This document shows, in pieces, positions 6,961 through 30,719 of a stretch of 64,000 bases of DNA. The position numbers were made by a program, and so were the translations under genes. The DNA is from a virus: positions 28,554-92,553 of IMG/VR virus record IMGVR_UViG_3300046096_000928, one strand, 5' to 3'. Below the pieces are notes generated by a model, which made no database searches, was not told where the DNA came from, and saw only the letters and a program-made list of their open reading frames with translations. Each line of letters begins with the position of its first letter. Position 1 is the first letter of the stretch.

Positions 6961-7050
6961 ATTAACTCCTAGTTGCTTAACTACTTTTAGGGGTTACGGA
7001 ATGATATACAGCAATTCATAATTAACAGTTATGGGTTGCTTTTCCGTTTC
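6961..7050 (-). promoter_or_regulatory. Structured 5' leader, type A copy 1
   Basis: ACGGAA/TTCCGT outer stem, AGCAA-CC-CATAA/TTATG-AA-TTGCT inner stem, then CCTA...TAGGAG. Confidence 0.65.
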
Positions 7051-7109
7051 TATAACTATTTATATATAAGTCTTTGAAGATTTTAAATCTACTTAATTAG
7101 TCTGTAATT

Positions 7110-8397
7110 CTAACTGTTCAATTTTATTTTGGTTGCTGATATTCTTTGATTAATTATGTTTAAATATTCTTCTTCTTTTTCGATTAGAACATAATTAAAA
7201 CCTGTTTCTATTGCACTTACTGCCGTTGTACCACTGCCTCCAAAAGGATCAAGTACAATTCCATTAGGGGGAGTAATTAACTCGATGAAATATGCCATTA
7301 AATGCCGTGATTTAACTGTCGGATGATCATTATTGACTAATCCTTTACAATTCCTATCAGTTGTGGATGCTTTGGCTTTGTAGTATATGCTATTGACTGT
7401 ATCTGTATCAAAAGGTAAGTTTTTAAAATATCTCGCCGCCGTTCCTTTATCCTCAAAATAAACACCGCTTTTATACGGATTACTTTTAAATTTTACTGAA
7501 TTATCCTTCGTGTATGTATCGTAATTATAGTCACTTGCTCTACTGACAGATTCCCCACTTTGATCGCCAATAACATTAACAGGACAATCTTTAGCGTGAT
7601 TATTTTCTTGGCAGTTAATACCACATGATAAAATTAAATTAGCTGGATAAAGACCGATGTTAGGATTGTGACCATCTTCTGATCCTGTTTCTTTTCCTAG
7701 CCCACTGTGATAAATATTAGTCTTCTCTTTTTTTTGAAAAACCACAAGGCACTCTTTTATTAGTACCAATCCTACCTGCATCAATATTTAATCCGCCCGT
7801 ACCGTGTTTAAGAATATTTCTAACAATACTAGATTCTGAACATTTTTTCTGCCCCAACCACCAACCTTCGATCGCAGGTTTCAACGCAGGAGTTTTCCAA
7901 CCATCCCATCGCTTTGCTAATTCACTTGATGATTTTGTGATTTTAGGGTTATCTTGCCATGAACCACCAAGTGCATTCGTACCATCCTTACATCCCCTTG
8001 CGGATGTAAGGATGCCTATAACCTCTCTTTCTTCTCCTAACATCCGATCAATCTGCTTACTCACATCTTGCCCTTTTTGAAATCCGCCGCCATTTGCATG
8101 GTGTACAATGTCAATAATTCTAAAACCAGCTAATTCTAAAGCCATACCAGTCCAGTGAGAGGTTCTAGGAATACTCCATACTAAACCAATTGCACCAGGC
8201 TTCATGGTACGCATGGCTTCGTTCATTACCTCTGATAACCAATTAATCCAATTAAGCATACCACCCTTGTTATCATCCCATTTCATGGACATAAAGCTGA
8301 TCGAAGAAGGTGGATCAGTAATTAAAGAATCAAAATAATTATCGGGGAATGTTTTTAATACTTTTAAACAATCACCATGCAAAACTTGGTTAATCAT
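7110..8397 (-). pseudogene. N4/N6 DNA methyltransferase split by a 1-nt frameshift in an A8 tract
   Basis: TDPPS in upstream ORF, HPTVK and LDPFGGSGTT in downstream ORF; A8 to A7 at 7728-7735 fuses them. Confidence 0.8.
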
Positions 8398-8534
8398 AGA
8401 TAAAAAACAATTTTAATACTCTTGTAATACAATAGATTACAAGAGTATTAAAATTGTGAGAATTAGGTTAGGCTATTCTACTGTTTGAGAATATTTAATT
8501 TGCCCGACAGGATCAGAATTATAAAAAAGATCAA

Positions 8535-8780
8535 TCAGAATAGTAGTTTTTTTTTTGTTTTGATTGGTTGCACTTTAAAGGAGATCATTGATTTATTAGA
8601 AGCTGTTTTTGTATTATTCCCTTTTATTAGGAAATCTGAAGATGATATAGAAACTTTGAATATATCTTGCATCTTACAAAATAATTCAATCTTCAAAACA
8701 TATAATTTATCTTTCTGTATAGGGGATAAATACCAATCTTCCCCATCTTCTCTTAATAATAATTCTATATTTTTTATCAT
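8535..8780 (-). CDS. Hypothetical protein
   Basis: 81-aa ORF in minus-strand operon. Confidence 0.45.
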   Translation of the reverse strand: MIKNIELLLREDGEDWYLSPIQKDKLYVLKIELFCKMQDIFKVSISSSDFLIKGNNTKTASNKSMISFKVQPIKTKKKLLF

Positions 8781-8806
8781 AGTTGTGTAGTTGTTTTTAA
8801 GTTAGG

Positions 8807-9507
8807 TTAAAGTGATTTTTCTATTAGTTGCCAAATATTTTTATGAACATAAATAGCCCGTTGTTTGCATTCAAGAAGTAAATTTTTAACGTAAGGATTT
8901 TTAGAGTCAAAATAATAAGCGGCGATCATAGTTAGAAAATTATCGGTTTTCATCTTTAACATCTCAACAAGAAATAGGAAAATATTAAAGTAACGAGGAT
9001 CATCGATATGATCTAAAACTGATTTTTCGATAAGATCATTTTCATAGATATATTTAGCAGTGAGAAATTCTTGTAAAAAGACATGAGAGAAAAAATAAAC
9101 ATCATCTTCTTTAGACAAGATTCCTTGCTCACAAAAAGTCTTTACTAATTCTATCACGTCAATATCGGACATCCCGAGGCAATCATCAATATAACCTTGA
9201 GCAGTCAATAATAATTTATATTCTTTAAAAGTTGCTTATTAGTAGAGAAAAATTTATAAGCAACTTTTGAAAGTAAAGCAAACTCTCTTTCAAATTCTGG
9301 ATAGCAACGATCCCCGTCTAAAAGTACTTTAAATATATCTTCATAAGTACGTGTCAAAGAAGAAGATGTTGTCAATCCATCGTAGGGATTTTTAGCTTCT
9401 CTGAATATAGGATTATCAGCTAAATGTTTTAATGAGTATCTGTCTAAACTTTTTAGAAATTGTGCAATGTCTTTTTTGATTTCTTTCTCTTTTAACAAAT
9501 TTTTCAT
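8807..9507 (-). pseudogene. NACHT-type C-terminal (HD1/winged-helix) fragment lacking the NTPase domain, split in two frames
   Basis: LA.NP, LLSKVAY..F, GIL...VYFFSH..LQEFLTA.YI and DPRY..IFL motifs; frames joined by -1 shift at 9223-9229. Confidence 0.6.
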
Positions 9508-9535
9508 TTTTTCTGTTAGTTGTATGTTTTATAAA

Positions 9536-9571
9536 ATAAGTTGGTAATACAATATTGTATTACCAACTTAT
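9536..9571. repeat. 36-bp perfect palindrome
   Basis: ATAAGTTGGTAATACAAT|ATTGTATTACCAACTTAT. Confidence 0.85.
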
Positions 9572-9593
9572 AAAGATTAGGTTAGGGTAGCAA

Positions 9594-10460
9594 TTAAAAA
9601 TCAATACCAGCTTCGGATAAAGTAGCCATATCTTCAGCAGTTAGATTAACTACCCCATTCTCATCAACTGGGGGGTGTGCATAACTTTTTAACTGAGGTA
9701 AAAAACTATGCGCGTGAGATAAAGTAGAGTGATTGTTAGGCAAAACTAAACTACTGAAATTAGCTTCGGTTATTTTCTCATAACCTTTAACCACAGTAGC
9801 TTCAGAAGTTAAACCATTATTATCACCAGATAACTCTCCTTCTATCAGAGTAGGACAGAAGATAAAGCGAGATGTGAATTTACAAGTCGGTGTTTGTTTT
9901 GGCAAAATTTTACCAGTAATTTGTTCAAACTGTTTAAGACTATCATTAATATATTCAGTATATGCAGTCTTGATCAATGAGTGGGCTTTCCCTTTAGTGC
10001 GAAATACTAAAGGAGTGTCTGATAATAAATTGTTATCTTTATCTACAAATAAGACAACTAAAACACTATACATTTCAAAGTCAGTCTTATTAAAATCATT
10101 TTTTTTGTAGTAACTTACTTTTTTCGTTTCTTTCCCTTGCATTAATAAAGGAGCTGCTACAACCTTAATCTCGTTACTTACTAAAGCGTCTTGATAACCA
10201 TTTAAAATAATCATACGGGGGGTACGACTGAACCACATCTTACCCGTAAATTTCTTTTTATCTTTATCTTTTAGTTTTACATCTTCTAAAGCCCAATTTT
10301 CATCTGGTTTAAAATCTATCGCTTTCGCTATATCTTGATTAATTGCAATCCCATGATTATCACTTTGTGGATTAAATAATTGACAGTGTGGATAGCCTTT
10401 TTGACTTGAAACGAACTCACTTACATCTACACCATAATCGGCAACATTTATTTTAGTCAT
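9594..10460 (-). CDS. DUF5895-like cyanobacterial protein (possible ssDNA-binding/annealing)
   Basis: PHCQ..N, PRM.I, LFVDKDN.LL...P...KG and F..RFIFCP; acidic ...GIDF tail. Confidence 0.5.
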   Translation of the reverse strand: MTKINVADYGVDVSEFVSSQKGYPHCQLFNPQSDNHGIAINQDIAKAIDFKPDENWALEDVKLKDKDKKKFTGKMWFSRTPRMIILNGYQDALVSNEIKVVAAPLLMQGKETKKVSYYKKNDFNKTDFEMYSVLVVLFVDKDNNLLSDTPLVFRTKGKAHSLIKTAYTEYINDSLKQFEQITGKILPKQTPTCKFTSRFIFCPTLIEGELSGDNNGLTSEATVVKGYEKITEANFSSLVLPNNHSTLSHAHSFLPQLKSYAHPPVDENGVVNLTAEDMATLSEAGIDF

Positions 10461-10642
10461 TTTTACTTTTTTGTTAAGAGTTGTTATAACTTCAATTATA
10501 ACAAAAAGCCTTGAAAATAGCAAAGGGAAAAGACATTTTTCTTTAGAAAATATAGAAAAAAGATTAATGCTACCAAAGCTAGGTTGTTTTAAAATTCTAT
10601 GATTGTTATAATTCTAGTTATAATAAATGATAAGGTTAGGTT

Positions 10643-10933
10643 ATGGCAAAAAGAATAATACCAATTGAATTAATGGAGAGGGCAAAACAAAATAATATTC
10701 CAGCAATTACAGTTTACAAAAGAGTACAATCTGGTATCTCTATGAATGATGCTGTAACAGTTAAAGATATTAGAAAATATTTTAAAGAGCAAAATACTAA
10801 TTTAATATCTTTTCATTATGAAAACAAGAAAAAATTAGTCTCAAAAATTAAAACATCCGAAAAAACAGCCTCAGAGTTTATATCCGAAGCCATTAATTTT
10901 TATTTACAATATTTAGAAAACAATGAACAATAA
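10643..10933 (+). CDS. Small DNA-binding protein (HTH plus RHH-like)
   Basis: AKQNNIP.ITVYKRV.SG and SEFISEAINFYL. Confidence 0.5.
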   Translation: MAKRIIPIELMERAKQNNIPAITVYKRVQSGISMNDAVTVKDIRKYFKEQNTNLISFHYENKKKLVSKIKTSEKTASEFISEAINFYLQYLENNEQ

Positions 10934-11093
10934 AATTGCAATTCACCCAACTTTACAGAAGTTTAGAGAAGATACTTACAAGGCTATTATCAGAAACGAA
11001 GCCTTAGCTAAATTAAAACAAAAAAAAATAATTCCCTTTAAACCTAAAGAAGATTAACTATAAAACCTAGCATTTAGCTAGGTCTTTCTCTTT

Positions 11094-11546
11094 TTAATAA
11101 TTTATGCCTTCTATATTTTCTACTTGGTGATCGTATAGTTGAGCATATTCGATTAAGTTATTTACCCCCAAAATATTGAGATATTTATAGACGTGTTTAC
11201 AAGCTACTTTGTTTGTTTTGTAAGCAATCTCTAAAAAAAGATAATCGTTACATTCACATTCAATATGATTTTGCATCGGTACTAAAATATAACTATTAAC
11301 ATTTTCTTTATTATGTGCGATATACTCATTATTCCCGAAGCAATGAATCTCAACTTCATTTACTCTTGCTTTTCTGTTTTTTATAATGACTTTTTTTATT
11401 TGTTTTTTAGTAACCAAAGAAATTTCATCATTTTTTAAAATCACAATACCGACATCACTCGCATCATAAGCAATTTTTCTTATTTCACTTTCTTTGATTT
11501 CTAAATACTGCGATACATTTTTTTTGTTGAAGACTATTTGTGACAT
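11094..11546 (-). CDS. SWIM zinc-finger protein
   Basis: CECND...ACKHV. Confidence 0.8.
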   Translation of the reverse strand: MSQIVFNKKNVSQYLEIKESEIRKIAYDASDVGIVILKNDEISLVTKKQIKKVIIKNRKARVNEVEIHCFGNNEYIAHNKENVNSYILVPMQNHIECECNDYLFLEIAYKTNKVACKHVYKYLNILGVNNLIEYAQLYDHQVENIEGINY

Positions 11547-11636
11547 TTTTCTTATTTACTCTATATTTGTTACCTCTTATTATAACATATATATAATAAA
11601 AAGACAATGTAAAAAAACAGGGATTTTAAAAAAAAG

Positions 11637-11981
11637 TTAGGCAACAAAAATAGAAGTACCAATAACAAGTTTTAATAAATTCCAGTAACTCATGCCATAA
11701 ACAGTTTGTTTGTAATAATCAAGATTTCGTTCAAGTAATTTTAAATCTATACTCCTGCCCTCTTCAATAGCTCTTAACGCACCACCTAAAGTTAGGTTTT
11801 CCATTCTTTCTAACTCCAATCGGTGAGCGGTTAAAAAGCCTTGTGCTATCGTTTTCTGTATCTCGACTGTCCAGATTCTACTTGTTAATAAGGATTCACT
11901 CAAGAGTAATTCAGATGCTACTATTTCATCATCTACATCATTGAATACTGTAAATCTTGTTTTAAATTCAGTTACATTCAT
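11637..11981 (-). CDS. Head-tail connector (DUF4054-like)
   Basis: EFKTRF..F, LTAHRL and Y.QT.YG..YW.L motifs. Confidence 0.7.
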   Translation of the reverse strand: MNVTEFKTRFTVFNDVDDEIVASELLLSESLLTSRIWTVEIQKTIAQGFLTAHRLELERMENLTLGGALRAIEEGRSIDLKLLERNLDYYKQTVYGMSYWNLLKLVIGTSIFVA

Positions 11982-12140
11982 TTTTTTTGTTTTGGCGATC
12001 GCTTTCTATTTTGATTTGTTCATTAATTAAATTCCCAACGGCTAACCAATAACTCCTTATAGCTTCGGTTGTGCTTTTTTCTTTATACTTTTTATATTTG
12101 AACATATACTTTTTATCTTTAAATATTTATCTATTTTAAC

Positions 12141-12188
12141 AAACAGTAAAAAGGCTTCTGGAGTAAATCAGAAGCCTTTTTACTGTTT
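12141..12188. terminator. Long inverted-repeat terminator
   Basis: AAACAGTAAAAAGGCTTCTG ... CAGAAGCCTTTTTACTGTTT just after the 12191 stop. Confidence 0.7.
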
Positions 12189-12190
12189 GA

Positions 12191-12916
12191 TTATTTAATA
12201 ATTGTTAAGGTTGTAGTTTCTGGTAGTTTCACGTTAGGATATGCAAAACGCCAAGCATCATGAGGATAAAGTAGTTGATAAGCATATCTTGCGGACGGTA
12301 CTTTTTTGATTTCTAAATTCATCTTTTCAGAAACCGCTTTTAATCTCCGCCAACTAAAGTTTTTCTCACTTATGTTATTAAATTTGGCTATACGGATAAT
12401 TGAGGAATAATCAAAGAGTTCATCAATTACTTCCGCTTGACGTTCTAAGTCTTTTTCTTGATCCTCAATGATAGATTGTTTAAGCTCATTCTCTAAAGCT
12501 AATCGTTCTTTTTCTTCTTCTTGTGCTATTAAAGCAAGTAAAGCTTCTTTGTAGGTTTTAGGCATTAGTGAAGAAACCTCTTTTAATGCTTTTTCTGCTT
12601 CGATAAAATATTTACGAGTATTTTTCCCTATCGCTGAGCGGGATAACATACAGAGTTCTTTCAAAGCATCACAAGTTAAATTAATTACTTCAGAACCACG
12701 ACCACCAGTGCTTTTCAACATTTTGTTAAAAAGATAATCGGTTTCCTTTTCTAAGTAATTATCTATAGCTCTTTTTGCACTTGCTTTTGTAGCATATCCT
12801 GCTACTTCCCATGCCTCATCAAGATCAACAGGATATTTATTCCCCTCTTTCTCTTTCCTCAACCATTCATCTACAATATTTGAGTAGGACTTGGAATTTA
12901 AACTTGAATCTGCCAT
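12191..12916 (-). CDS. AntA/AntB-like antirepressor protein
   Basis: YPVDLD.AW..AGY, GGR....LT.D.LKELCM, RKYFIEAEK and PKTYKEALLAL motifs. Confidence 0.75.
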   Translation of the reverse strand: MADSSLNSKSYSNIVDEWLRKEKEGNKYPVDLDEAWEVAGYATKASAKRAIDNYLEKETDYLFNKMLKSTGGRGSEVINLTCDALKELCMLSRSAIGKNTRKYFIEAEKALKEVSSLMPKTYKEALLALIAQEEEKERLALENELKQSIIEDQEKDLERQAEVIDELFDYSSIIRIAKFNNISEKNFSWRRLKAVSEKMNLEIKKVPSARYAYQLLYPHDAWRFAYPNVKLPETTTLTIIK

Positions 12917-13035
12917 AATAGATATATCTCCTAAGTTACTTAATTATGTTTAGGTGGTACAGACGTTATTAAAAGCGGATTCTTAATCAAAGCTAAGAGT
13001 TCGCTTGTCTGTTTTTCCTTTGTTTATTGTAACAG
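12917..13035 (-). promoter_or_regulatory. Extended -10 promoter (TGTTACAAT) plus structured 5' leader, type A copy 2
   Basis: ACAGAC/GTCTGT outer stem, AAGCG..TCTTA/TAAGA..CGCTT inner stem, CCTAA...TTAGGAG. Confidence 0.65.
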
Positions 13036-13087
13036 TTTTAGGCTATAATTTACGGTTTTATTGAAAAAAGATTACACGAAAACAGGG

Positions 13088-13193
13088 TTGACATTTTTAA
13101 AGAAGCGGATTATAACGAAGGGTATGTTTCCGAATTTATTTAGTGTATGTTTTGGGAAGCTCTGACTATACATCGGGCTTCCCCTTTTTTTTT
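13088..13193 (+). ncRNA. Candidate ~70-nt small RNA with its promoter and intrinsic terminator
   Basis: TTGACA-17-TATAAC (13088-13116); GGGAAGC...GCTTCCC hairpin followed by T9 on the + strand only. Confidence 0.6.
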
Positions 13194-13482
13194 ATGGTAA
13201 ACTTTCTTCTTCTACAATCTCACTTAATGGCAGTTGACGATCAGGATCAAAAGCGTTATAAGTATTGGCTAAATAAGTTAAAGTTTTGCCTATGTCGGGG
13301 ATTGACTCTCTTACTTCTTTACCTGTTATTGTTACTATTCTAGTCTCTAATACATTAAAACTAGCACTATATTTAATAAATGTTAAAGTTGCTATTGAGT
13401 TGTCATTATCTTGATTGTTTATTTCAAGATTGAAATTAGTCATTAAGGAAATAGATAATAATTGTTTTTCTATATATGGCAT
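13192..13482 (-). CDS. Hypothetical protein in virion accessory operon
   Basis: Last gene of tightly packed 15706-13192 operon. Confidence 0.45.
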   Translation of the reverse strand: MPYIEKQLLSISLMTNFNLEINNQDNDNSIATLTFIKYSASFNVLETRIVTITGKEVRESIPDIGKTLTYLANTYNAFDPDRQLPLSEIVEEESLP

Positions 13483-13484
13483 AA

Positions 13485-14318
13485 TTAATCTGCTACTATT
13501 AGTATTGTAAATGAAGCATCACAGCGAGGAGTTCCATTAGTTGCACCTGGTATCGCTGATACTTTTATTGTTGATCCAGCTTTATATTTCAGATAATTCA
13601 AGTTACTCGAATAATTCTGTCCTATTGCTAGGAATATCCTTTCCTGAAATAAATATCTTGGATTATTATCTCTAGTTAATGTTTTTGTGGTCGCCCTTAA
13701 TCTCACGTCCATTGTGGCTACGAGTGCAGCTACATTCCAATCTAAGAGATAACCTGTATAGCCAACGGGAACAGTAAATCTAGCTGATAGAGACTTATTC
13801 CCATTAGCTACTATTTGTTCATAAATGATGGTAGGAGTGCCTGTTTTTCTTAGATTAATAGTACCAGCCGATACTTCTAAAGAACCCCCCTCAACGGCTT
13901 CCATCCATTGAATGGCTGTTGCTGTAATACCAGTTGCTACAGGAGTAGTTCCATTTAAGTTAATATCAGGCGATTCTACTAATTCACCTAAAGAGTTTAA
14001 ATAAGTTATTCTTACCTTACGAGTGCCAGTGCCTAGTAAAGTATCGTTAGCAGAGGTACTAACAACTTCAAGGGCATCTGAAGTTGTTACAGGGGTAAAG
14101 TTTTGTTGCCCAACCGCATTTGTTAAAAATTCACAAACATCATGAAGTTGAGTAGTATTAACAAAAACAGTTCGGTTTCCTAAAATAGCAAAAATATAGG
14201 CTTGTTTTGTATTTAAGAAACTAGTCGATTGGACTATGTAAGGATCAGCTATTCCTATTGTCTCAATCGGATTTATAGCTACTTGTTGACCGCCAGTTAA
14301 AGTAATAATTCTACTCAT
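13485..14318 (-). CDS. Putative virion structural (fibre/decoration) protein
   Basis: VVSTSANDT..GTG.R.V.I..L motif; Thr/Gly-rich beta composition. Confidence 0.5.
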   Translation of the reverse strand: MSRIITLTGGQQVAINPIETIGIADPYIVQSTSFLNTKQAYIFAILGNRTVFVNTTQLHDVCEFLTNAVGQQNFTPVTTSDALEVVSTSANDTLLGTGTRKVRITYLNSLGELVESPDINLNGTTPVATGITATAIQWMEAVEGGSLEVSAGTINLRKTGTPTIIYEQIVANGNKSLSARFTVPVGYTGYLLDWNVAALVATMDVRLRATTKTLTRDNNPRYLFQERIFLAIGQNYSSNLNYLKYKAGSTIKVSAIPGATNGTPRCDASFTILIVAD

Positions 14319-14321
14319 TTA

Positions 14322-16056: not shown

Positions 16057-16064
16057 AATGTACC

Positions 16065-22486: not shown

Positions 22487-22515
22487 TTGACAAAATAAAT
22501 CAAATAAGAGACAGT
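22487..22515 (+). promoter_or_regulatory. Repeated promoter P4
   Basis: TTGACA-AAATAAATCAAATAAGA-GACAGT. Confidence 0.75.
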
Positions 22516-22558
22516 AGTAATATAAGAACAAAAAACAAACACAGCGAGACTAAATTAA

Positions 22559-22819: not shown

Positions 22820-22942
22820 AAACAAAAATAATAACTAGGTTTATTCTCTCAAGATAACCTAGTTATTATTTTTATAGGTTTCTCATCAGTTAAGCTAAAA
22901 CAAAGCCATTAATAGCCAAATAAACAGCTATAGAGAGAAGAA

Positions 22943-23850: not shown

Positions 23851-24030
23851 CTTATTTTAATTACAACTATAAACAATCATACTACATACAAAGAAAAATT
23901 AACTAGGGATCAATATTTAATTGGATTTACCTTCTTTATTTTCTTTATGAATAAATCATTGTTCCCAACTAGAAAAACTTTAATCCGTCCCATAATCATC
24001 AACAGAGAAAATAATTGTCCATCTCCTCAA

Positions 24031-24200
24031 CGGCTTCTTTTCTTTAAAAAAAAAGAAAAATCATTTTTACATAATTAACTTGATCTTTGTTTCTTTGATC
24101 AATAAGTGGATTTATTATTATTATGTGTATCAAAAACCTGTTATCACGAATCCTAATAACACGATTTCTGTTATCACGAATCCTAATGATAGGAACTCGT
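24031..24200 (+). repeat. Origin-like module copy B
   Basis: CATAATTAACTTGATCTTT segment and 15-bp-period repeats at 24137, 24152, 24167 and 24182, ending AGGAACTCGTCA. Confidence 0.75.
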
Positions 24201-24463
24201 CATCAGGATTATTTTGCTATGACTACTGGGTAAATCAAATAAATGTCTATCAATACCTAAACAACATTTTAAAGGGAAAGAAACCGATTTAAACGGCAAT
24301 AGAGATAACGATCAGTTTAATAAGTAACGATAAAATCAAAAAAAGGAGAAAAAGATAAGATTCTGTATTTTAATCGGATTTTGACTAAAAAAAGGCGATC
24401 GCCTAATTAAAAAAGATATAATTAGAGAAAAGATAAAATTAGAGAAAAGATAAAATAAAAAAG

Positions 24464-25936
24464 ATGAAAATAATTAAATTAAATGAAGATAGCCTATATA
24501 ATCCTCATAGTGGATTAGGGACAGAATATAGCTCGTTAAAAAATACTTTTTTTAATCTCAGCTTACCAACTAACCCTGAGGATAGAGATAGTTTCTCTTT
24601 GTTGTATCGGACTTTATGGCAAGTAGAAAAAGTAGTAGATTACTTTCCTAGTGAGATGACAAAAGAATGGGGGAAATTAACTTTAAAACAAAATAGAAAA
24701 ATAGAAAATGAGATAGATCAGATTACAGATAAATTAAGAGATATTTTTAGAGATGGTCAAAGATTAGCGAATCTTTATGGTTCAGCAATGGCAATTATCT
24801 ATGTAGAAGATGGAGGAAAATTGTACGAGCCGATTAATTTCAATAAAATAAAATCTTTTCAAGGTTACTCAAGAATATTTGATAGATGGGAATTAACAAT
24901 CGCCCCAAACAGTTATTCAAATAATGAACCTTATGATCCTGAGTATTATACTTTATTGACTTATTCAAATAATCAAAAAGTGCCAAATAATACATTAATT
25001 CACAAAGATAGAATATTAAGATTTAGGGGGCGAAAATTACCACCCTATGAACAAATATTAAATCAAGGTTGGGAAGATTCGGTCTTACAGCCTTTCTTAA
25101 ATCCATTAAAAAATTATTTAGCTGGTTATCAATATGTAACAGAAGCTCTAAGAGATTTTGAGATAATGATTGTTAAAATACAAGATTTAAACGAAAAATT
25201 GGCAGCGAGTGAACAAGGGTATAGAGCGATAAAACAAAGAGCAAAAGAAGTAAGTATTGATGCAAGTAGTCAACGTGGTTTGTGGATGGATAAAGAAACA
25301 GAAGAAGTACAGATATTAAGTAGGAATTTTAGTAATGTAGAAAAAATAGTTGATATTTCATTAAGGGAAATGATCGCCTCCTCTGGTATTGATGCAGGTG
25401 AATTTTATAAAGAAAAGGATCAAATAAAAGCTAACAGTAAAGAGGAAAGATTAGCAACAGCTAATCGTATTAAATCATTACAAGAGGAAAAATGGAGTAA
25501 CTTAATTGAATCACAATTAGAGTTAATTTTAGCTACATACAATATAAAAAAAAATAATAGAAAGTGGGAATGGATAAGTACATATTCACCGACGGAAACC
25601 GAAAAATTAGAAATGGACGATAAAGAATCAATTACTTTAGATAGATATATCTCTAATGGTGTTTTAACGGCTGAAGAAGTTAGAACCTCAGTTTTTGATA
25701 ATCCCGACACAAAAATAATGTTAAATGAAGTCGATAAAAAAAATGTATTAAAAGAACCTGAAAATATAAAAGAAATCTTATTAAATGAAACTACAGAAGA
25801 AAAAGAAAAAAAAGAAAATAAAAAAGATGATCAAAATGAGATACAGAAATTTGTAGTGAAAGAAAATTCAGAATTATTACCAAATAGTTATTATGATATA
25901 GATTTAGACGAATTAGAAACTATAGAAGAAGATTAA
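24464..25936 (+). CDS. Portal protein (DUF1073/HI1409-like)
   Basis: LYR..W...KVVD..P.EMT, ANLYG, IHKDRILRF.G, GW.DS.LQ and Y..NGVLT.EEVR. Confidence 0.85.
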   Translation: MKIIKLNEDSLYNPHSGLGTEYSSLKNTFFNLSLPTNPEDRDSFSLLYRTLWQVEKVVDYFPSEMTKEWGKLTLKQNRKIENEIDQITDKLRDIFRDGQRLANLYGSAMAIIYVEDGGKLYEPINFNKIKSFQGYSRIFDRWELTIAPNSYSNNEPYDPEYYTLLTYSNNQKVPNNTLIHKDRILRFRGRKLPPYEQILNQGWEDSVLQPFLNPLKNYLAGYQYVTEALRDFEIMIVKIQDLNEKLAASEQGYRAIKQRAKEVSIDASSQRGLWMDKETEEVQILSRNFSNVEKIVDISLREMIASSGIDAGEFYKEKDQIKANSKEERLATANRIKSLQEEKWSNLIESQLELILATYNIKKNNRKWEWISTYSPTETEKLEMDDKESITLDRYISNGVLTAEEVRTSVFDNPDTKIMLNEVDKKNVLKEPENIKEILLNETTEEKEKKENKKDDQNEIQKFVVKENSELLPNSYYDIDLDELETIEED

Positions 25937-26247
25937 TCTTTATTTCGAGAATTATGAGTATCTCCGTTTGAAGGGCTAAATCCGTTTAGTTTTTCAAGAT
26001 AGCGTTCAATTCTATCAATTCGTTTCTCGAAGGAACTAAACATATAATTCATTTCTGCTCTTACCGCTTTTATATTAGCGGCATTCTCTCCTATATTATC
26101 CCTAATTTTATTAGTTTTGGATTCTAAACTGCTAGTAATATCGTTTTTGATAATTGTCTGTTTACTGAAATTAAGATAATTAATAAAGGGAACAAATATC
26201 GCCGTTACTAAGATTAGTGCAACTGAGATAATTTCAAAAGGGGTCAT
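25933..26247 (-). CDS. Single-TM coiled-coil protein (holin/XhlA-like candidate)
   Basis: N-terminal hydrophobic helix followed by heptad pattern. Confidence 0.4.
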   Translation of the reverse strand: MTPFEIISVALILVTAIFVPFINYLNFSKQTIIKNDITSSLESKTNKIRDNIGENAANIKAVRAEMNYMFSSFEKRIDRIERYLEKLNGFSPSNGDTHNSRNKD

Positions 26248-26294
26248 TTATTTAGATTATAAAAAGAATAAGTTCATTTTATATGTTAACAAAA

Positions 26295-26531
26295 CTAAAT
26301 AATTGTCTTTTTAACTTTTTTTTGTTCCCAATTTTTTTGGAGATAATTTTTTATTTGTTTAGCTTCGATTCTAGTCTGATTATATTCTTGAATCACTTTT
26401 AATAAATTAAAAGTGAGAAATAGAATAGCTATAAAAACTAAGAAAGGGTGACTTTTTAATCCTATTAATCCGAGTAGAAAGAAAAAAGTGAAGATTAGAT
26501 TTCTTTTACATTTAGAATGTAATTTTAGCAT
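26295..26531 (-). CDS. Small two-TM membrane protein
   Basis: Two hydrophobic stretches. Confidence 0.45.
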   Translation of the reverse strand: MLKLHSKCKRNLIFTFFFLLGLIGLKSHPFLVFIAILFLTFNLLKVIQEYNQTRIEAKQIKNYLQKNWEQKKVKKTII

Positions 26532-26537
26532 ATTAAT

Positions 26538-27074
26538 TTAAAATTTATTGATTTTGGTTATTAATAATGCTATCAGATATTGATTATCTTTATCTATTTT
26601 TTGTCTTATCGCATTTTCTAAAGATTTCGTCAATCGCTCATTAATTCTAGTTATCTTTTTTTTTATAAAAAAATCTAACATGTTGCGTTCGCTTTCTACT
26701 ATGTTGTAAAATAAACAGAATCTATCAAATTGACTATCAGAAAAAGGGTATTTATCCTCTTCTAAAAAAATCACTTCATCTATTCGATCATAAATAAATT
26801 TGGCAGGTACGAATGGTTCAATCTTAGGAAAAACTAACTCATAATTTAGATAATCTTTTTGTAATTTCACAATACTATTTAATTTGATTAATAATGCCGT
26901 TAAATTAGAGTTATACCATTTCCCCGTATTTTTTCTGACTTGGGGAATTAAATAGCCATCATTCCTTTTATTAAAGCCCGTCAATAACTTTTTCTTTGAG
27001 ATATAGACGGGCGTATCATAACTTACTTTTTCGCTCAGTAAATTCAATTCTTTTCTTACTAAATATAACTTCAT
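26538..27074 (-). CDS. Hypothetical protein
   Basis: 178-aa ORF in coupled operon. Confidence 0.5.
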   Translation of the reverse strand: MKLYLVRKELNLLSEKVSYDTPVYISKKKLLTGFNKRNDGYLIPQVRKNTGKWYNSNLTALLIKLNSIVKLQKDYLNYELVFPKIEPFVPAKFIYDRIDEVIFLEEDKYPFSDSQFDRFCLFYNIVESERNMLDFFIKKKITRINERLTKSLENAIRQKIDKDNQYLIALLITKINKF

Positions 27075-27268
27075 TTTAAGTAATCTTTTAATACTTCTAA
27101 AATATCGTTTACGTTTACCTCACTTAAATCTTTTAATTGCATACATAAAGTTAAAACCCCGTCTTTATCTTCTTTTGATTCAATCGTGGCAAACTCTGTT
27201 TTTACAGAGTGTTTACTTGCTTCGATATTGTTTACGCCTTTCCCTTCTAATAGTTGCTTTAAGTCCAT
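27071..27268 (-). CDS. Hypothetical protein (paralog of 27573..27818)
   Basis: MDL..L...G ... IL..LKD..K shared. Confidence 0.5.
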   Translation of the reverse strand: MDLKQLLEGKGVNNIEASKHSVKTEFATIESKEDKDGVLTLCMQLKDLSEVNVNDILEVLKDYLK

Positions 27269-27572
27269 TGTTTTATTTTTTCGATTATTTATTAATTGTT
27301 CTAGCTGATTTGATTACTGGTTTTATTTACGAAAACTTTAAGAAGTCTCAAAATAAACTTAATTTTTTGCTCATCCACGTCTTTAACTTCAATGAGTAAT
27401 CGGGGAAATCTTTATTTTCTTTTATTTCTACTGTTACGTAATCTGTTTCTACATAGTTTGTTGATTCTACTATGCCCGTTACTCCGTAATCTAATAATTC
27501 CTGTTTTAAGTCCATTATCTAAAATCCTTTATTATTTATTTAATTTTGCTCCCGCAAAAAGGCTTTTAATGA

Positions 27573-27818
27573 TTATTTGATCATATCTTTAAGTGTTTTT
27601 AAAATCTCTTTTATTTGGGATTCTGTGACTTTCTTAAATCCTATCTCTAATTTAAAGTGATCCTCGTTCTCTTCTTTTATCACTACGAAGTATAAATCAT
27701 CGTTACTTACTGATTGAGTTACTTCGTATGGATCAGCAAGCCCTAAAGTTTCTAATTCTTTTTGTAAATCCATTATATGAAGTCCTTTTCTATATTTTCT
27801 ATTAACGAATCTTGGCAA
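27573..27818 (-). CDS. Hypothetical protein
   Basis: Probable start MDLQKE at 27773. Confidence 0.5.
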   Translation of the reverse strand: MPRFVNRKYRKGLHIMDLQKELETLGLADPYEVTQSVSNDDLYFVVIKEENEDHFKLEIGFKKVTESQIKEILKTLKDMIK

Positions 27819-28048
27819 CTCAAACCCACTTCGGTGATTATTTGATTTACTGTAATCTGTGTTGTTTCAATTATACTACTAAAATTATGAATTAGGGAAA
27901 ATATATTAGAAATAGTTATCAACAATAAAACTTTTTGATGATGCTCAATCAAAAAATCGTAATCTTCTTTTTCTAACTCCCATTCTATATTTGACTTCAT
28001 TACTAAAAATGTATCTAACTTTTGGGTGAAAATATCTGTATTCATCAT
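27773..28048 (-). CDS. Hypothetical protein
   Basis: 91-aa ORF. Confidence 0.4.
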   Translation of the reverse strand: MMNTDIFTQKLDTFLVMKSNIEWELEKEDYDFLIEHHQKVLLLITISNIFSLIHNFSSIIETTQITVNQIITEVGLSCQDSLIENIEKDFI

Positions 28049-28109
28049 ATTTGTTTTATACTTGTAATAGTTATATATTACATTAAAATGAGAATAAAAA
28101 ATAAAAATA

Positions 28110-28571
28110 ATGACAATTTCATATCAAGGGTTACTGACCGAATTAAAAAGTATAAGCAAGGGGTTAAAAGGAGTAACTGGGATTCAATACAACGCACTGT
28201 TTACCTTTAAAGAAGGTATGGGTAATATTGTTATTGATGAAACCACAGGCAACTATAATTTAGAGACTGAAATGATGAGAACAGTAAAAGCTAAATTGAT
28301 AAAAAGAAAAGACGGCACAGTAGAGAGTGAAGGAGGATTAAATTACTCAAGGGTATATTGTGAAGGTTGGTTAGTTACGCCCGTTGAATATAACGGACGG
28401 ATACCTAATGTAGTTGATTGTAGTTTTATTCAAAATAACTTATCTTATGAAGGTAAATTTTATTTCACGGACGCTATGACAACACCTGTTACTGAATCAA
28501 TGGATTTGGCGATTGCCATTGGTCAAGCTATACAAGGTTATTTTGAATTGAAAGGAGATAACGGATTATAA
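28110..28571 (+). CDS. Putative head-closure protein
   Basis: DETTGN, GWLV.P and G..I.G.F pattern; coupled to neck gene. Confidence 0.5.
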   Translation: MTISYQGLLTELKSISKGLKGVTGIQYNALFTFKEGMGNIVIDETTGNYNLETEMMRTVKAKLIKRKDGTVESEGGLNYSRVYCEGWLVTPVEYNGRIPNVVDCSFIQNNLSYEGKFYFTDAMTTPVTESMDLAIAIGQAIQGYFELKGDNGL

Positions 28572-28945
28572 TGAAATTTACTTTTGATGAAAAGAAATTC
28601 TTAAAAGAGGCTGAGAGAATAGCTGTCAAAGGATTTGGTAAAGTAGCGGATGTAATGCAAGAACAAATAACTGAAGAAAAAAGAGAATACCCTAACCTTA
28701 CGGTGCGGAGGTATGGAGAGGGTAAAACTGGACGTATTGCTACAAGCCCTAGAGACGTGGTAGATAGTGCTGATTTAAGAGATAGTTTTATGAACGCTAG
28801 TAGAATAGAAGGGAATACTATTATTTTTAATGCTACATGGGATGCGGATCATGCTAGTTTAGTTTATTTAGGGACTTCTAAAATTCCTAGCTATACGTGG
28901 GTTGATAATGTAGTACAAACAATTAATTGGCAAACTATTATTTGA
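28571..28945 (+). CDS. Neck protein (HK97 gp10-like)
   Basis: SPRDVVDS..LRDS and W...A..V..GT motifs. Confidence 0.6.
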   Translation: MKFTFDEKKFLKEAERIAVKGFGKVADVMQEQITEEKREYPNLTVRRYGEGKTGRIATSPRDVVDSADLRDSFMNASRIEGNTIIFNATWDADHASLVYLGTSKIPSYTWVDNVVQTINWQTII

Positions 28946-29426
28946 TCGTAATTAGATTGATTTCTTCTAATAAATTTTCTTGCTGTTTTAACATTTCTAC
29001 TAGACTTTGATCGTCAGGGTGATTCCATCCTAAGAGATGTAAGAAGCCATGAGAAGCTAACCAAGTTAACTCAATCTTTAAAGCGTGTTGTTGAGTTATA
29101 GCTTGTCTCTTAGCTGTTTCTACTGAAATGATTATGTCTCCCAAATAAATAGGTTCATCTAAATCATCAATCAATATTTCATTTTCTAAGGAGGCAAAAC
29201 TTAAAACATCGGTTGTTTTATCTATGTTACGAAATTGATTATTTAATGCTTTTATTTCTTCATCATTAGTTAATCTTAGAGTTAGTTCATAATGATCATT
29301 TTGGGGAGTATCTGGACTTAATAAATTTAACCATTGTTGAAACCAATCTTGCCAAATGTCTGACAAAATTGGTTTATCTTGGCTATTGGAATATAAATCT
29401 TCAAAGAAAAGAGTGATAGTAGCCAT
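28938..29426 (-). CDS. ybeY: rRNA maturation endoribonuclease YbeY
   Basis: LNNQFR..DK.TDVLSF, LGDIIIS and HGFLHLLGWNH zinc motif. Confidence 0.95.
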   Translation of the reverse strand: MATITLFFEDLYSNSQDKPILSDIWQDWFQQWLNLLSPDTPQNDHYELTLRLTNDEEIKALNNQFRNIDKTTDVLSFASLENEILIDDLDEPIYLGDIIISVETAKRQAITQQHALKIELTWLASHGFLHLLGWNHPDDQSLVEMLKQQENLLEEINLITIK

Positions 29427-29430
29427 AGGT

Positions 29431-29601
29431 TTAACGTGTTAAGTAAGACATTGCAATTAAAAAAGTAAATAATCCTAAAGTAGTTAAGAAAAAATGCCAT
29501 AAAGAAATTCCTTTTTTAGCAACCATATTACGCATCGCTGATTTAACAAAACTATCTTTTATCTCCTTATTGGCGATCGCCTTTGTTTCTTCTTCATTCA
29601 T
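29431..29601 (-). CDS. DUF3285 family small membrane protein (missed by ORF track)
   Basis: SFVKSAMRNMVAKKGISLWHFFLTTLGL...SYLTR; usual upstream neighbour of cyanobacterial ybeY. Confidence 0.85.
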   Translation of the reverse strand: MNEEETKAIANKEIKDSFVKSAMRNMVAKKGISLWHFFLTTLGLFTFLIAMSYLTR

Positions 29602-29607
29602 ATTTTA

Positions 29608-29841
29608 TCAGTAAAAATTTATTTGTTTTTTTTCATAATAATCTAATTTTGTCTTTAAGATAACTAATTCTTTTTCTAAATCGGTTATTTTTTCATTTTG
29701 TTGGTCAATTCTTTTGTCTAATTGCTTTTCTACTTTATTAAGTCTATTCTCACTTATCATACCAAATAATAGACTTAGTAAAGTATAGCCACCTGTTATT
29801 GTAAATAAGACTTGCTGATAATGTTCTAATAAAAAAATCAT
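29608..29841 (-). CDS. Single-TM coiled-coil protein
   Basis: Hydrophobic helix followed by heptads. Confidence 0.45.
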   Translation of the reverse strand: MIFLLEHYQQVLFTITGGYTLLSLLFGMISENRLNKVEKQLDKRIDQQNEKITDLEKELVILKTKLDYYEKKQINFY

Positions 29842-29888
29842 CTTTTTTCTTCTCAGTCTATACTTTAATTGTATTAAAAGTATATTAA

Positions 29889-30125
29889 TTAAGATTTTAT
29901 CCCACGCTTTTTAGCTTCTTCGGCATATTTTGAATATTCCATTAATTCCATAGCTTTTCCCCCAAAAACTAATACTTGCTCATAGGGTACATAACGATCA
30001 ATGCCATACATTGCATCTACACCCTCTACAGATTCTTTTTCGATGTACTCTATCACAGCTAAAAGTTCATCATCTTTTAACTCCACAACTTCATAATCAT
30101 TTATTAATACGACTGGAGGTTTCAT
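29889..30125 (-). CDS. Hypothetical protein
   Basis: 78-aa ORF. Confidence 0.5.
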   Translation of the reverse strand: MKPPVVLINDYEVVELKDDELLAVIEYIEKESVEGVDAMYGIDRYVPYEQVLVFGGKAMELMEYSKYAEEAKKRGIKS

Positions 30126-30169
30126 TTTTTCTTACTCTAAACTATAATTTAATCATACTTCATTCGCAT

Positions 30170-30567
30170 TACAATATAAATCAAATTATTCACGCTGATT
30201 GTTTTGATATTCTTAAAGATTTACCTGATAATTCTATCGATGCAATCGTTACTGATCCGCCGTATTTCAAGGTAAAAAAGAACAATGGGATAATCCTGGA
30301 CATTCCCAACGGTATCATTTTATAAAGGTAAGCATCCTTGTGAAAAGCTCTTAGAATTAATAAAACATATAGTAAAAGCATCAACTACAGAGAATCAAGT
30401 AATATTAGATTGCGATCGCTGGTAATTTCACAACAGCGATCGCCTGTTTAGAATTAAATAGAAAATATATCTGTATTGAGAAGGATAAAGATTATTTTGA
30501 GATTGGCAAAGAGAGGATTGCCCGTTGGCATGAGAATAAACAAACTGACTTGTTTGCGGGTAATTAA
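30170..30567 (+). pseudogene. N4/N6 DNA methyltransferase remnant with internal deletion
   Basis: INQIIHADC..TDPPY joined almost directly to HPCEK..TTAIAC..IEKD. Confidence 0.8.
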
Positions 30568-30600
30568 TCTTAAGTAAATCTGTTATTTATGACTTAAAAA

Positions 30601-30719
30601 TGTTACAATAAATAAAGGAAGTGAATACTAGAAAAGCAACCCATAAATTGCGTTATGAATTGCTTATTATCATCTAGCATCCCCTAAACCATTTAACCTA
30701 AATAGGAGATATATTTATT
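30601..30719 (+). promoter_or_regulatory. Extended -10 promoter plus structured 5' leader, type A copy 3
   Basis: TGTTACAAT; CTAGA/TCTAG outer stem; AAGCAA-CC-CATAA/TTATG-AA-TTGCTT; CCCCTAAA...TAGGAG. Confidence 0.65.

What the first reader, a model, noticed from the sequence alone, without database searches (positions are those of the whole stretch)
6961..30719. Covarying structured leader RNA shared by three non-homologous antirepressor-like genes
Seen: the 5' regions of the Bro-N gene (6961-7050, -), AntA-like gene (12917-13035, -) and the 30720 gene (30601-30719, +) share one architecture. The outer stem has fully compensatory sequences (ACGGAA/TTCCGT, ACAGAC/GTCTGT, CTAGA/TCTAG) and a 3' A/U bulge. 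The inner stem has C-A mismatches (AGCAA-CC-CATAA/TTATG-AA-TTGCT in two copies, AAGCG-AAC-TCTTA/TAAGA-ATC-CGCTT in the third). It is followed by CC(C/A)CCTAAA-like sequence whose CCTA can pair with the TAGGAG Shine-Dalgarno. Two copies also share TGTTACAATAAAyAAAGGAA and TAGGAGATATATyTATTATGGCAGA. The proteins are unrelated, so this is not simple gene duplication. Known: P1/P7 and P4 control antirepressor or lytic transcripts through structured RNA (C4, CI). Inference: an undescribed cis-regulatory RNA (protein-, sRNA-, ligand- or RNase-switched) coordinating a lysis-lysogeny regulon.
Basis: partly seen in the sequence, partly recalled or inferred. Interest (0 to 1): 0.85.

Follow-up and report, generated by a model that had tools for sequence, protein, structure and literature searches.

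The report
Antisense RNA cassette guarding cyanophage antirepressor genes
The shared "leader" is real and its folding is under selection, but the fold is selected on the opposite strand, so it most likely encodes a roughly 90-base antisense RNA that faces and silences each antirepressor-type gene, much like the sar RNA of phage P22, here packaged as a portable five-copy cassette in a freshwater cyanophage.

Summary
Observation confirmed and extended. The window belongs to a 92.5-kb temperate cyanophage record, closest to Nodularia phages. It carries five copies of the module, not three. Six more distinct copies lie in four related viral contigs, and a distant homologue sits before the KilA-N gene of cultured Nodularia phages. 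There is no Rfam match.

The helices covary. The antisense fold is about twice as stable (-26 to -30 versus -12 to -17 kcal/mol).

A TGn-extended -10 box lies on the antisense strand 8 nt (once 7 nt) before the CUCCUA/CCUCUA anti-Shine-Dalgarno word in all ten distinct module copies. In the Nodularia homologue it lies 8 nt before GACCUA. The box is built from different codons in each gene. The hairpin reads as terminator-like only on that strand.

Best reading (0.6): convergent promoters plus a sar-like cis-antisense RNA, carried on a recombining cassette that usually follows a DNA methyltransferase gene. No RNA data exist, so expression is inferred.

This scan reached similar sar-like readings on other phages (notes e1-5945956 and e1-1965102, unchecked). 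I classify it as a new variant of a known kind.

The parts
6238..6960 (-). Gene A: Bro-N / Ant-like protein (240 aa) with a BstA-like C-terminal part
   Evidence: Pfam Bro-N, E 3.6e-18. PHROG anti-repressor Ant, E 1.4e-30, and phrog_6287 BstA, E 2.6e-8.
6928..6957 (+). Predicted antisense promoter of module A: TTGACT-18-TAAATT preceded by TG. The extended -10 is TGTTAAATT at 6949-6957, made from codons 2-4 of gene A.
   Evidence: The generic scan flags it with TG before the -10. It lies 8 nt before CUCCUA.
6964..7056 (+). Predicted antisense RNA A (about 90 nt). It has a 5' hairpin holding the anti-SD word CUCCUA (6966-6971) and a 3' bulged hairpin at 6996-7047.
   Evidence: R1 hit of 85.8 bits at 6966-7060. 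Fold is -26.1 kcal/mol, z -3.66, against -15.4, z -1.63 for the sense strand. Terminator-like on the + strand only.
12191..12916 (-). Gene B: Ant-like protein (241 aa)
   Evidence: PHROG phrog_63 anti-repressor Ant, E 2.4e-17. Weak Pfam AntA match.
12891..12919 (+). Predicted antisense promoter of module B: TTGGAA-17-CATAAT with TG. The extended -10 is TGCCATAAT at 12911-12919 and overlaps the start codon.
   Evidence: Flagged by the scan with TG before the -10. It lies 8 nt before CUCCUA.
12926..13022 (+). Predicted antisense RNA B. Anti-SD at 12928-12933; bulged hairpin at 12959-13012, followed by UUUUU.
   Evidence: R1 hit of 78.4 bits. Fold is -26.5 kcal/mol, z -4.34, against -17.1 for the sense strand. 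Terminator-like site at 12973-13006 plus the tail GTCTGTTTTT on the + strand.
13026..13085 (-). Sense promoter of module B (extended -10 TGTTACAAT at 13026-13034) plus about 50 nt of conserved upstream sequence
   Evidence: Exact TGTTACAAT occurs at only five sites in the genome, four of them in modules. The upstream similarity among B, C, D and E begins about 168 nt before the ATG.
30556..30609 (+). Conserved upstream block (end of a truncated methyltransferase gene, with GTAATTAA ... GTTATTTA repeats) and the sense extended -10 TGTTACAAT at 30601-30609 of module C
   Evidence: C shares about 300 nt of upstream sequence with D and E.
30617..30710 (-). Predicted antisense RNA C. Anti-SD CUCCUA at 30703-30708; bulged hairpin at 30625-30680.
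   Evidence: R1 hit of 94.3 bits at 30615-30708 on the - strand. Fold is -26.2 kcal/mol, z -3.32, against -13.6, z -1.33 for the sense strand.
30717..30725 (-). Predicted antisense extended -10 of module C (TGCCATAAT). It overlaps the ATG and codon 2 of gene C.
   Evidence: It lies 8 nt before CUCCUA. The motif density in the genome is 0.0023 per position.
30720..31460 (+). Gene C: T5orf172 (GIY-YIG-like) domain protein (246 aa)
   Evidence: Pfam T5orf172, E 2.4e-4. PHROG phrog_4284 and an endonuclease family.
7110..7784 (-). DNA methyltransferase gene directly upstream of module A
   Evidence: PHROG phrog_67 DNA methyltransferase, E 3.9e-28.

Best explanation
Each module is a face-to-face promoter pair that makes two overlapping RNAs.

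**The sense RNA.** A sense extended -10 promoter (TGTTACAAT) drives the mRNA of an Ant/Bro/Rha/T5orf172 gene.

**The antisense RNA.** An extended -10 box on the opposite strand overlaps the first codons. It drives an RNA of about 90 nt that starts 1-2 nt before CUCCUA, the exact complement of the Shine-Dalgarno sequence. This RNA has three parts:
- a 5'-terminal hairpin;
- a pyrimidine-rich tail that ends at the sense transcription start.

**Proposed action.** The antisense RNA is complementary to the whole 5' UTR. It would block ribosome loading, mark the duplex for RNase III, or both. Convergent transcription would add interference between the two promoters. The expected result is that potentially harmful antirepressor or abortive-infection-type genes stay off unless the sense promoter wins.

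**Mobility.** The cassette is portable. It has spread to five unrelated genes, usually behind a DNA methyltransferase gene, and recombines between phages.

**Shown:** the copies, the covariation, the strand asymmetry, and the fixed-distance promoter-like and terminator-like motifs.

**Inferred:** transcription of the antisense RNA, its ends, and its repressive effect.
For: 1. **Strand asymmetry.**
   - G.U cells on the antisense strand (C.A on the sense strand) number 38, against 7 of the reverse kind. In the inner helix the count is 23 against 2.
   - Double substitutions in copies F, H and I give G.U on the antisense strand but mismatches on the sense strand.
   - Population variants T30656C and G30657A do the same.
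2. **Energies.**
   - Hairpins fold at -17.8 to -22 kcal/mol antisense against -9 to -14.4 sense.
   - Whole predicted RNAs fold at -26.1 to -29.6 (z -3.3 to -5.3) against -12.1 to -17.1 (z -0.4 to -2.7).
3. **Antisense promoter.**
   - TGn plus CATAAT, TACCAT or TAAATT lies 8 nt (once 7 nt) before CUCCUA/CCUCUA in all 10 distinct copies, with a purine at position +7.
   - The box is made from different codons: start codon plus UTR in B and C, codons 1-3 in D and E, codons 2-4 in A.
   - The motif density is 0.0023 per position, so three independent contexts by chance have a probability of about 3e-7.
   - The generic scan adds -35-like hexamers for A (TTGACT) and B (TTGGAA).
4. **Terminator.** Terminator-like sites are called only on the antisense strand, in A, B, D and E. 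Shuffles give 0.1-0.3 per region.
5. **Distant homologue.**
   - Cultured Nodularia phages (KU230356.1 8348-8442) carry the same two-hairpin layout antisense to, and abutting, a KilA-N gene.
   - The stems are entirely different (-32.4 against -26.9 kcal/mol), and CCUA..UUAAAU..UUAGG is conserved.
   - TGCAATAAT again lies exactly 8 nt before GACCUA, here built from codons 3-5.
6. **Generality.** Of 21 N-terminal clusters of Rha-family genes in IMG/VR, 11 carry an antisense extended -10-like box within -5..+54 of the ATG. Counted over the 43 distinct gene starts, that is 28 starts against 3.9 expected from shuffles. The density is 27-fold that of the rest of the coding sequence.
7. **Precedent (from memory).** P22 sar RNA is a 68-69 nt cis-antisense RNA over the ant ribosome site, made from a promoter facing Pant (Liao et al. 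and Wu et al. 1987). [quoted passage not shown]
Against: - No transcript data exist. Only DNA metagenomes hold this phage, so both promoters, both transcription starts and the 3' end are predictions.
- The run of U after the hairpin is canonical only in B. C is not called as a terminator.
- The 5' anti-SD hairpin is only 71.7% paired across copies, and its covariation is weak.
- The sense RNA can also form the hairpin and an SD-sequestering helix, so a sense-strand role is not excluded.
- The copies come from few lineages: one clade of five viral records plus the Nodularia phages. Cells in the covariation counts are therefore not independent.
- The box near the ATG could partly reflect A/T-rich initiation-region preferences.
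Confidence: 0.6

Rival explanations
1. This is the first reader's reading: a sense-strand cis-regulatory leader. The hairpin in the mRNA 5' UTR, together with pairing of CCUA with the UAGGAG Shine-Dalgarno, controls translation or stability in cis. A protein, an RNase or a trans-acting RNA would switch it.
For: - The sense promoter TGTTACAAT lies upstream of the hairpin, so the hairpin is in the mRNA.
- RNAfold predicts the hairpin and an SD-pairing helix on the sense strand.
- The outer stem covaries and is Watson-Crick on both strands.
Against: - Sense folds are weak: z -0.4 to -2.7, with 1-63 of 200 shuffles folding as well.
- In the inner helix, 18.5% of cells are unpaired on the sense strand against 2.3% on the antisense strand.
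- Double changes in F, H and I create sense mismatches.
- This reading does not explain the fixed-distance antisense extended -10 box or the antisense-only terminator calls.
Confidence: 0.17
2. The module is mainly a mobile promoter / stem-loop cassette, like the PeSL cassettes of T4-type phages. Its role would be to provide homology for recombination that shuffles cargo genes. The hairpin would act as a generic terminator or insulator, or as a DNA-level structure, rather than as a specific regulator.
For: - There are five dispersed copies in front of unrelated genes. C, D and E also share the upstream methyltransferase 3' end.
- Copy J of a related phage joins a B-type hairpin to a D-type Rha gene.
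- Metagenome contigs break at the module and continue into unlike sequence (share 0.67-0.81).
- PeSLs are described as composite promoter/terminator repeats that mediate modular shuffling (PMC4122927; PMC2839356).
Against: - Recombination homology alone does not require compensatory base changes, a strand-specific G.U pattern, or a fixed antisense -10 to anti-SD spacing.
- The order of elements is promoter then hairpin. A PeSL has the terminator first, then the promoter.
- This reading is compatible with the best explanation rather than an alternative to it.
Confidence: 0.13
3. The bulged hairpin is a protein- or polymerase-binding RNA. Examples are a put-like processive antitermination element or an operator for a phage RNA-binding repressor. 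It could act on whichever strand is transcribed.
For: - The position is promoter-proximal.
- The bulge sequence is conserved (UGAUAUA on the antisense strand, UAUAUCA on the sense strand), as is the loop-adjacent UUAAAU.
- HK022 put RNAs are promoter-proximal bulged stem-loops (from memory).
Against: - Modules B and C head single genes rather than long operons; gene C faces a convergent gene, and what follows A, D and E was not checked.
- No candidate RNA-binding protein was identified.
- The stems differ completely in Nodularia phages while the layout is kept. This fits an antisense or terminator role better than a sequence-specific protein site.
Confidence: 0.05

Closest known systems
sar RNA of Salmonella phage P22 (immI region: Pant-arc-sar-ant)
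   Same: - A small cis-antisense RNA is made from a promoter that faces the antirepressor promoter.
- It covers the ribosome-binding site of an Ant-type gene.
- It has two stem-loops.
- It keeps an antirepressor off.
   Different: - There is no sequence or covariance-model similarity (no Rfam hit).
- The RNA is about 90 nt with a three-tier bulged 3' hairpin.
- The antisense -10 box overlaps the start codon.
- There are five copies per genome, in front of unrelated Bro-N, Ant, Rha and T5orf172 genes.
- The host lineage is cyanobacterial.
- Expression has not been shown.
C4 RNA of P1/P7 and CI RNA of P4
   Same: An RNA-level lock on antirepressor or lytic genes that acts at the ribosome site.
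   Different: - C4 and CI are processed from the sense leader and pair through short words with repeated target sites.
- Here the selected fold is on the opposite strand and the complementarity is complete.
- No Rfam family, and so no C4-family model, matched at gathering score.
PeSL cassettes of T4-type phages (Arbiol et al. 2010, PMC2839356; Comeau et al. 2014, PMC4122927)
   Same: Short, repeated, composite promoter plus stem-loop units sit in front of unrelated accessory genes. They appear to serve as exchange points for cargo.
   Different: - A PeSL is a terminator followed by an early promoter on one strand.
- This cassette has two convergent promoters around the hairpin, and its stems covary.
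- It occurs in a temperate siphovirus-like cyanophage.
Bulged antisense RNAs of plasmids (CopA of R1, RNAI of ColE1, RNAII of pMV158)
   Same: These are fully complementary antisense RNAs. Their long stems are interrupted by bulges or wobble pairs and end in a terminator. Both partners fold into mirror-image hairpins, which allows loop-loop contact (from memory).
   Different: The targets are replication genes of plasmids, and there is no sequence relationship.
Antisense RNA and transcriptional interference at nblA in heterocyst-forming cyanobacteria (PMC13283749, abstract only)
   Same: Convergent antisense transcription used as a switch in the presumed host lineage (Nostocales).
   Different: It is a host gene and a different RNA. 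It was not compared in detail.

Membership tests
sar-type cis-antisense RNA guarding an antirepressor gene | The structured RNA is encoded on the strand opposite the gene and overlaps its Shine-Dalgarno region | tested here: met
   G.U against A.C cells are 38 to 7 in favour of the antisense strand. Antisense folds are about twice as stable. The CUCCUA at the predicted 5' end is the complement of UAGGAG.
sar-type cis-antisense RNA guarding an antirepressor gene | Its own promoter, facing the gene's promoter | tested here: met
   This is a sequence motif only. A TGn-extended -10 box lies 8 nt (once 7 nt) before CUCCUA/CCUCUA in all 10 distinct copies, and 8 nt before GACCUA in the Nodularia phages. 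-35-like hexamers are present in A and B. Promoter activity was not measured.
sar-type cis-antisense RNA guarding an antirepressor gene | Intrinsic terminator that gives a short discrete transcript | tested here: inconclusive
   A, B, D and E are called terminator-like on the antisense strand only. C is not called. Only 3-6 of the first 8 tail bases are U, counted from the sequences.
sar-type cis-antisense RNA guarding an antirepressor gene | The transcript is detected and represses the target | not testable with these tools
   No RNA run holds the sequence.
sar-type cis-antisense RNA guarding an antirepressor gene | Sequence and structure homology to P22 sar | tested here: not met
   No Rfam family reaches gathering score in the window. 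Nothing relevant appears at E <= 10 around module C. Membership by descent is therefore not claimed; the claim is only 'works like'.
C4 / CI antisense RNAs (P1, P7, P4) | Match to the Rfam C4-type models | tested here: not met
C4 / CI antisense RNAs (P1, P7, P4) | The RNA lies in the sense leader and pairs through short repeated words with the ribosome site | tested here: not met
   The selected fold is on the opposite strand. The only sense-strand pairing to the SD is a 4-6 bp CCUA/UAGG helix without clear covariation (helix 1).
PeSL mobile regulatory cassettes | A repeated composite promoter plus stem-loop between unrelated accessory genes | tested here: met
   There are five copies at 70-87% identity before proteins with no BLASTP similarity.
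PeSL mobile regulatory cassettes | The stem-loop (terminator of the upstream gene) precedes the promoter on the same strand | tested here: not met
   The order is promoter, then hairpin, then SD. The hairpin is terminator-like only on the opposite strand.
PeSL mobile regulatory cassettes | Recombination at the cassette exchanges cargo | tested here: inconclusive
   Copy J joins a B-type hairpin to a D-type gene. Metagenome contigs break at the module. No recombination junction was demonstrated.

The most novel reading that the evidence does not exclude
A self-contained 'silencer' cassette may be the general control device of KilA-N, Bro, Rha and Ant genes across cyanophages of filamentous cyanobacteria.

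- The cassette consists of convergent extended -10 promoters plus a structured antisense RNA.
- It would move between genes, often behind methyltransferase genes.
- Its near-identical copies could cross-regulate each other in trans as one regulon.
- The antisense promoter at the start codon would then be a family-wide, so far undescribed feature of Rha-type genes. It is seen in 11 of 21 gene clusters examined.
Probability: 0.35. Interest if true: 0.7.

Novelty: new variant of a known kind. Interest (0 to 1): 0.55.

Why it matters
- **The gene class.** Antirepressor-class genes (Bro-N, KilA-N, Rha, Ant, T5orf172) are among the commonest and least understood phage accessory genes. Some are abortive-infection or lysis-lysogeny effectors.
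- **What a portable cassette would explain.** If each travels with its own antisense silencer, that would explain how temperate phages can carry several potentially harmful copies. It would also show how new cargo is put under control at once. It would give a covariation-supported RNA family for cyanophages, for which almost no regulatory RNAs are described.
- **Testability.** The homologue in cultured Nodularia phages makes the idea directly testable.
- **Method.** C.A 'mismatches' in a conserved hairpin are a cue to read the other strand.

Tried and rejected
- **RNA evidence.** No RNA holder is listed for the stretch. Contigs of four DNA runs were laid. They show variant copies and contig breaks but cannot show transcripts.
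- **Pattern scans for the inner stem.**
  - The 42 metagenome contig hits and 26 genome contig hits were all chance matches. None was confirmed by the model.
  - The promoter pattern in viral contigs gave 22 loci, only 2 of them real.
- **blastn of the module against 50,697 phage records.** No match.
- **The genome search 'relatives'.** Not available for a virus record.
- **Terminase search in IMG/VR.** Only one relative was found, so the clade is rare.
- **R1 on 80 Rha-homologue loci.** It hit only the already known copy. Those genes have other promoter-proximal hairpins.
- **A 10-codon upstream ORF (MNC...).**
  - It starts at the conserved UUAUGAAUUGC and ends at CCUAA. It is present in A, C, D, E and G.
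  - It is absent from B, F, H, I and J, where the ATG is lost, and it has no SD. It was rejected as a leader peptide (sequences).
- **DNA-level hairpin (attC-like or IS200-like).** Considered. It could also give G.T asymmetry, but it does not explain the promoter and terminator motifs. No matching recombinase was found apart from a serine integrase.
- **Column-wise pair counting with the Nodularia sequences.** Not attempted.
- **Not used.** No complex prediction or structure prediction was run, because they do not bear on the question.

Full report
**What is there**

Each folds into the same three-tier hairpin: an outer stem, an inner stem interrupted by C.A mismatches, and a 7-8 nt bulge on the 3' side. 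This is followed by CCUAAA, UAGGAG and the start codon.

The window is bases 28554-92553 of a 92.5-kb IMG/VR virus record, estimated 80% complete. The record encodes a portal protein, a major head protein, a large terminase subunit, a ribonucleotide reductase, DnaB and a serine integrase. Its terminase is closest, at 39% identity, to those of Nodularia phages, with Cylindrospermopsis phages next. Its DNA is found only in freshwater metagenomes. It is therefore most likely a temperate cyanophage of filamentous cyanobacteria.

**Copy number and cargo**

Nucleotide search and a covariance model (R1, built from alignment A3) find exactly five copies in the genome, at 78-96 bits. Everything else scores 22 bits or less. 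Two copies, D and E, lie outside the window.

| Copy | Downstream protein |
|---|---|
| A | Bro-N/Ant-like with a BstA-like tail |
| B | Ant-like |
| C | T5orf172 (GIY-YIG-like) |
| D | Rha (PF09669) |
| E | Bro-like, phrog_8036 |

The five proteins show no pairwise BLASTP similarity, so the module did not spread by simple gene duplication.

Upstream, A and D follow DNA methyltransferase genes. C follows a truncated methyltransferase 3' end. E follows an apparently disrupted copy that is 75% identical in DNA to the D-upstream gene. The similarity among B, C, D and E starts about 168 nt or more before the ATG, whereas A shares only the hairpin onwards.

**Relatives**

Four related IMG/VR records hold six further distinct copies: one shared by G001 and G002, one shared by G003 and G004, and three more in G003. 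Pattern scans of the metagenome and genome collections gave only chance matches. No Rfam family matches.

**Covariation**

The following counts are on the 10 distinct copies.
- The inner helix is 97.7% paired and the outer helix 90%.
- Thirteen of 25 pairs change on both sides.
- None of 500 shuffles reaches the observed covariation.
- Sliding the partner columns drops pairing to 39-56%.

The copies are related, so cells are not independent. Even so, the outer stem exists in at least four fully compensated versions (CGGAA/UUCCG, CAGAC/GUCUG, CUAGA/UCUAG, CGAGA/UCUCG). The inner stem exists in two 'alleles' that differ by four double changes, with a further double change in F, H and I.

**Which strand**

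- **Wobble pairs.** On the opposite strand each one is a G.U pair. Across the alignment, 38 cells are G.U on the antisense strand and only 7 are the reverse. In the inner helix the count is 23 against 2.
- **Hairpin energies.** The antisense hairpins fold at -17.8 to -22 kcal/mol, against -9 to -14.4 on the sense strand.
- **Whole-RNA energies.** The predicted antisense RNA folds at -26.1 to -29.6 kcal/mol (z -3.3 to -5.3; 0-1 of 200 shuffles fold as well). The same stretch read as the 5' UTR folds at -12.1 to -17.1 kcal/mol (z -0.4 to -2.7).
- **Second hairpin.** RNAalifold also predicts an antisense 5' hairpin, CUCCUA paired with UAGGGG. It appears in four of the five single folds. Its covariation is weak, with 71.7% of cells paired.

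**Promoters and terminator**

On the sense strand, TGTTACAAT (a TGn-extended -10) precedes the hairpin in B, C, D and E. It is almost confined to the modules: four of the five exact sites in the genome are in modules.

On the antisense strand every copy has TGn plus a -10-like hexamer.

| Copies | Antisense box |
|---|---|
| B, C, F | TGC-CATAAT |
| G | TGA-CATAAT |
| H, I, J | TGT-CATAAT |
| D, E | TGT-TACCAT |
| A | TGT-TAAATT |

The box always lies 8 nt (once 7 nt) before CUCCUA/CCUCUA, with a purine seven bases downstream. The start codon moves relative to this box: it lies at the 5' end of the hexamer, at its 3' end, or downstream of it. The box keeps its distance to the anti-SD word throughout.

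Such a box has a density of 0.0023 per position in this genome. Three independent contexts by chance have a probability of about 3e-7. The generic scan adds -35-like hexamers for A (TTGACT-18-TAAATT, with TG) and B (TTGGAA-17-CATAAT, with TG). It calls the inner stem plus its pyrimidine-rich tail terminator-like in A, B, D and E, only on the antisense strand. C is not called.

The two predicted transcription starts are about 95 nt apart and face each other. The antisense RNA would therefore be complementary to essentially the whole 5' UTR. It would end at the sense promoter.

**A distant homologue in cultured phages**

R1 gives a weak hit (20 bits) at the same place in the three Nodularia phage records that were searched with it. 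The hit is on the strand opposite a KilA-N gene and abuts its start codon (KU230356.1 8348-8442; gene 2AV2_11 at 7575-8345).
- The layout is the same: a 5' hairpin GACCUAG...UUAGGU with the conserved UUAAAU loop word, then a long hairpin with an 8-nt 5' bulge and a 1-nt 3' bulge.
- The stems are entirely different.
- The antisense fold is again the more stable one (-32.4 against -26.9 kcal/mol).
- TGCAATAAT again lies exactly 8 nt before GACCUA, this time built from codons 3-5.

This is a fourth independent context for the antisense box. It also makes the hypothesis testable in a culturable system.

**Generality**

I examined 43 distinct starts of Rha-family genes from IMG/VR loci. An antisense extended -10-like box lies within -5..+54 of the ATG in 28 of them, which is 11 of 21 N-terminal clusters. 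Shuffled windows give 3.9. The density is 0.0187 per position against 0.0007 in the rest of the coding sequence. These genes do not carry the same RNA, but many have their own promoter-proximal hairpins. This is suggestive only.

**Mobility**

In the related phage G003, copy J joins a B-type hairpin to a D-type Rha gene. In four freshwater metagenomes, contigs break at the module and run on into unlike sequence, and several variant copies are visible. The module therefore behaves as a recombining cassette, functionally reminiscent of the PeSL cassettes of T4-type phages (PMC4122927). Its element order and two-strand design differ from PeSL.

**Interpretation**

The best-supported reading is a sar-like arrangement: convergent promoters and a cis-antisense RNA of about 90 nt that masks the ribosome site of an antirepressor-class gene. 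Here it is packaged as a portable cassette present five times.

The assignment to the sense leader is probably wrong.

What remains inferred is that the antisense RNA is made, where it ends, and that it represses. No RNA data exist for this phage.

Two earlier notes of this scan (e1-5945956 on a soil-crust cyanophage, e1-1965102 on gut Clostridia phages) reached similar readings on other DNA. I did not check them and do not count them as evidence. They do suggest that the theme recurs, which tempers the novelty.

**Scores**

- Novelty: new variant of a known kind.
- Interest: 0.55.
- Confidence in the antisense reading: 0.6.

Noticed in passing
window 5660-5821 (and genome 677-838, outside the window): A 166-nt intergenic segment downstream of gene A is 87% identical to a segment downstream of gene D. 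It is a separate dispersed repeat and may be the element that other first-stage notes call origin-like.
   Followed up: no
window 30400-30567; L003 246-1472: There are decaying methyltransferase duplicates. Only a C-terminal fragment remains upstream of module C. The copy upstream of module E is split into several short ORFs, yet it is 75% identical in DNA over about 900 nt to the intact gene upstream of D.
   Followed up: partly
KU230356.1 8348-8442 (L207 1501-1595); also MK605242.1 and MK605246.1: Cultured Nodularia phages carry a single distant copy of the antisense module against their KilA-N gene. The region is unannotated in the records.
   Followed up: yes
L121-L200 (IMG/VR loci with Rha-family genes): Many Rha genes of other viral contigs have an extended -10 promoter followed at once by a GC-rich hairpin with compensated stems, for example GCCCCCG../CCCCTAG../CCCCCGAT... 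They also carry an antisense extended -10-like box in their first codons, for example an exact TGTTACAAT in L142.
   Followed up: partly
window 30556-30600 and 13035-13085; equivalent stretches in D, E and F-J: About 50 nt upstream of the sense -10 is conserved and contains two direct GTAATT(A/T)A words roughly 22 nt apart. This may be an operator for a DNA-binding regulator.
   Followed up: no
window 30654-30686 and the equivalent in A, D, E and G: A 10-codon ORF (MNC...) lies inside the sense hairpin and ends at the conserved CCUAA. It is absent from B, F, H, I and J and has no SD, so it is probably fortuitous.
   Followed up: yes
window 41744-43201: A large serine integrase (phrog_95) indicates a temperate lifestyle for this uncultured cyanophage.
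   Followed up: no
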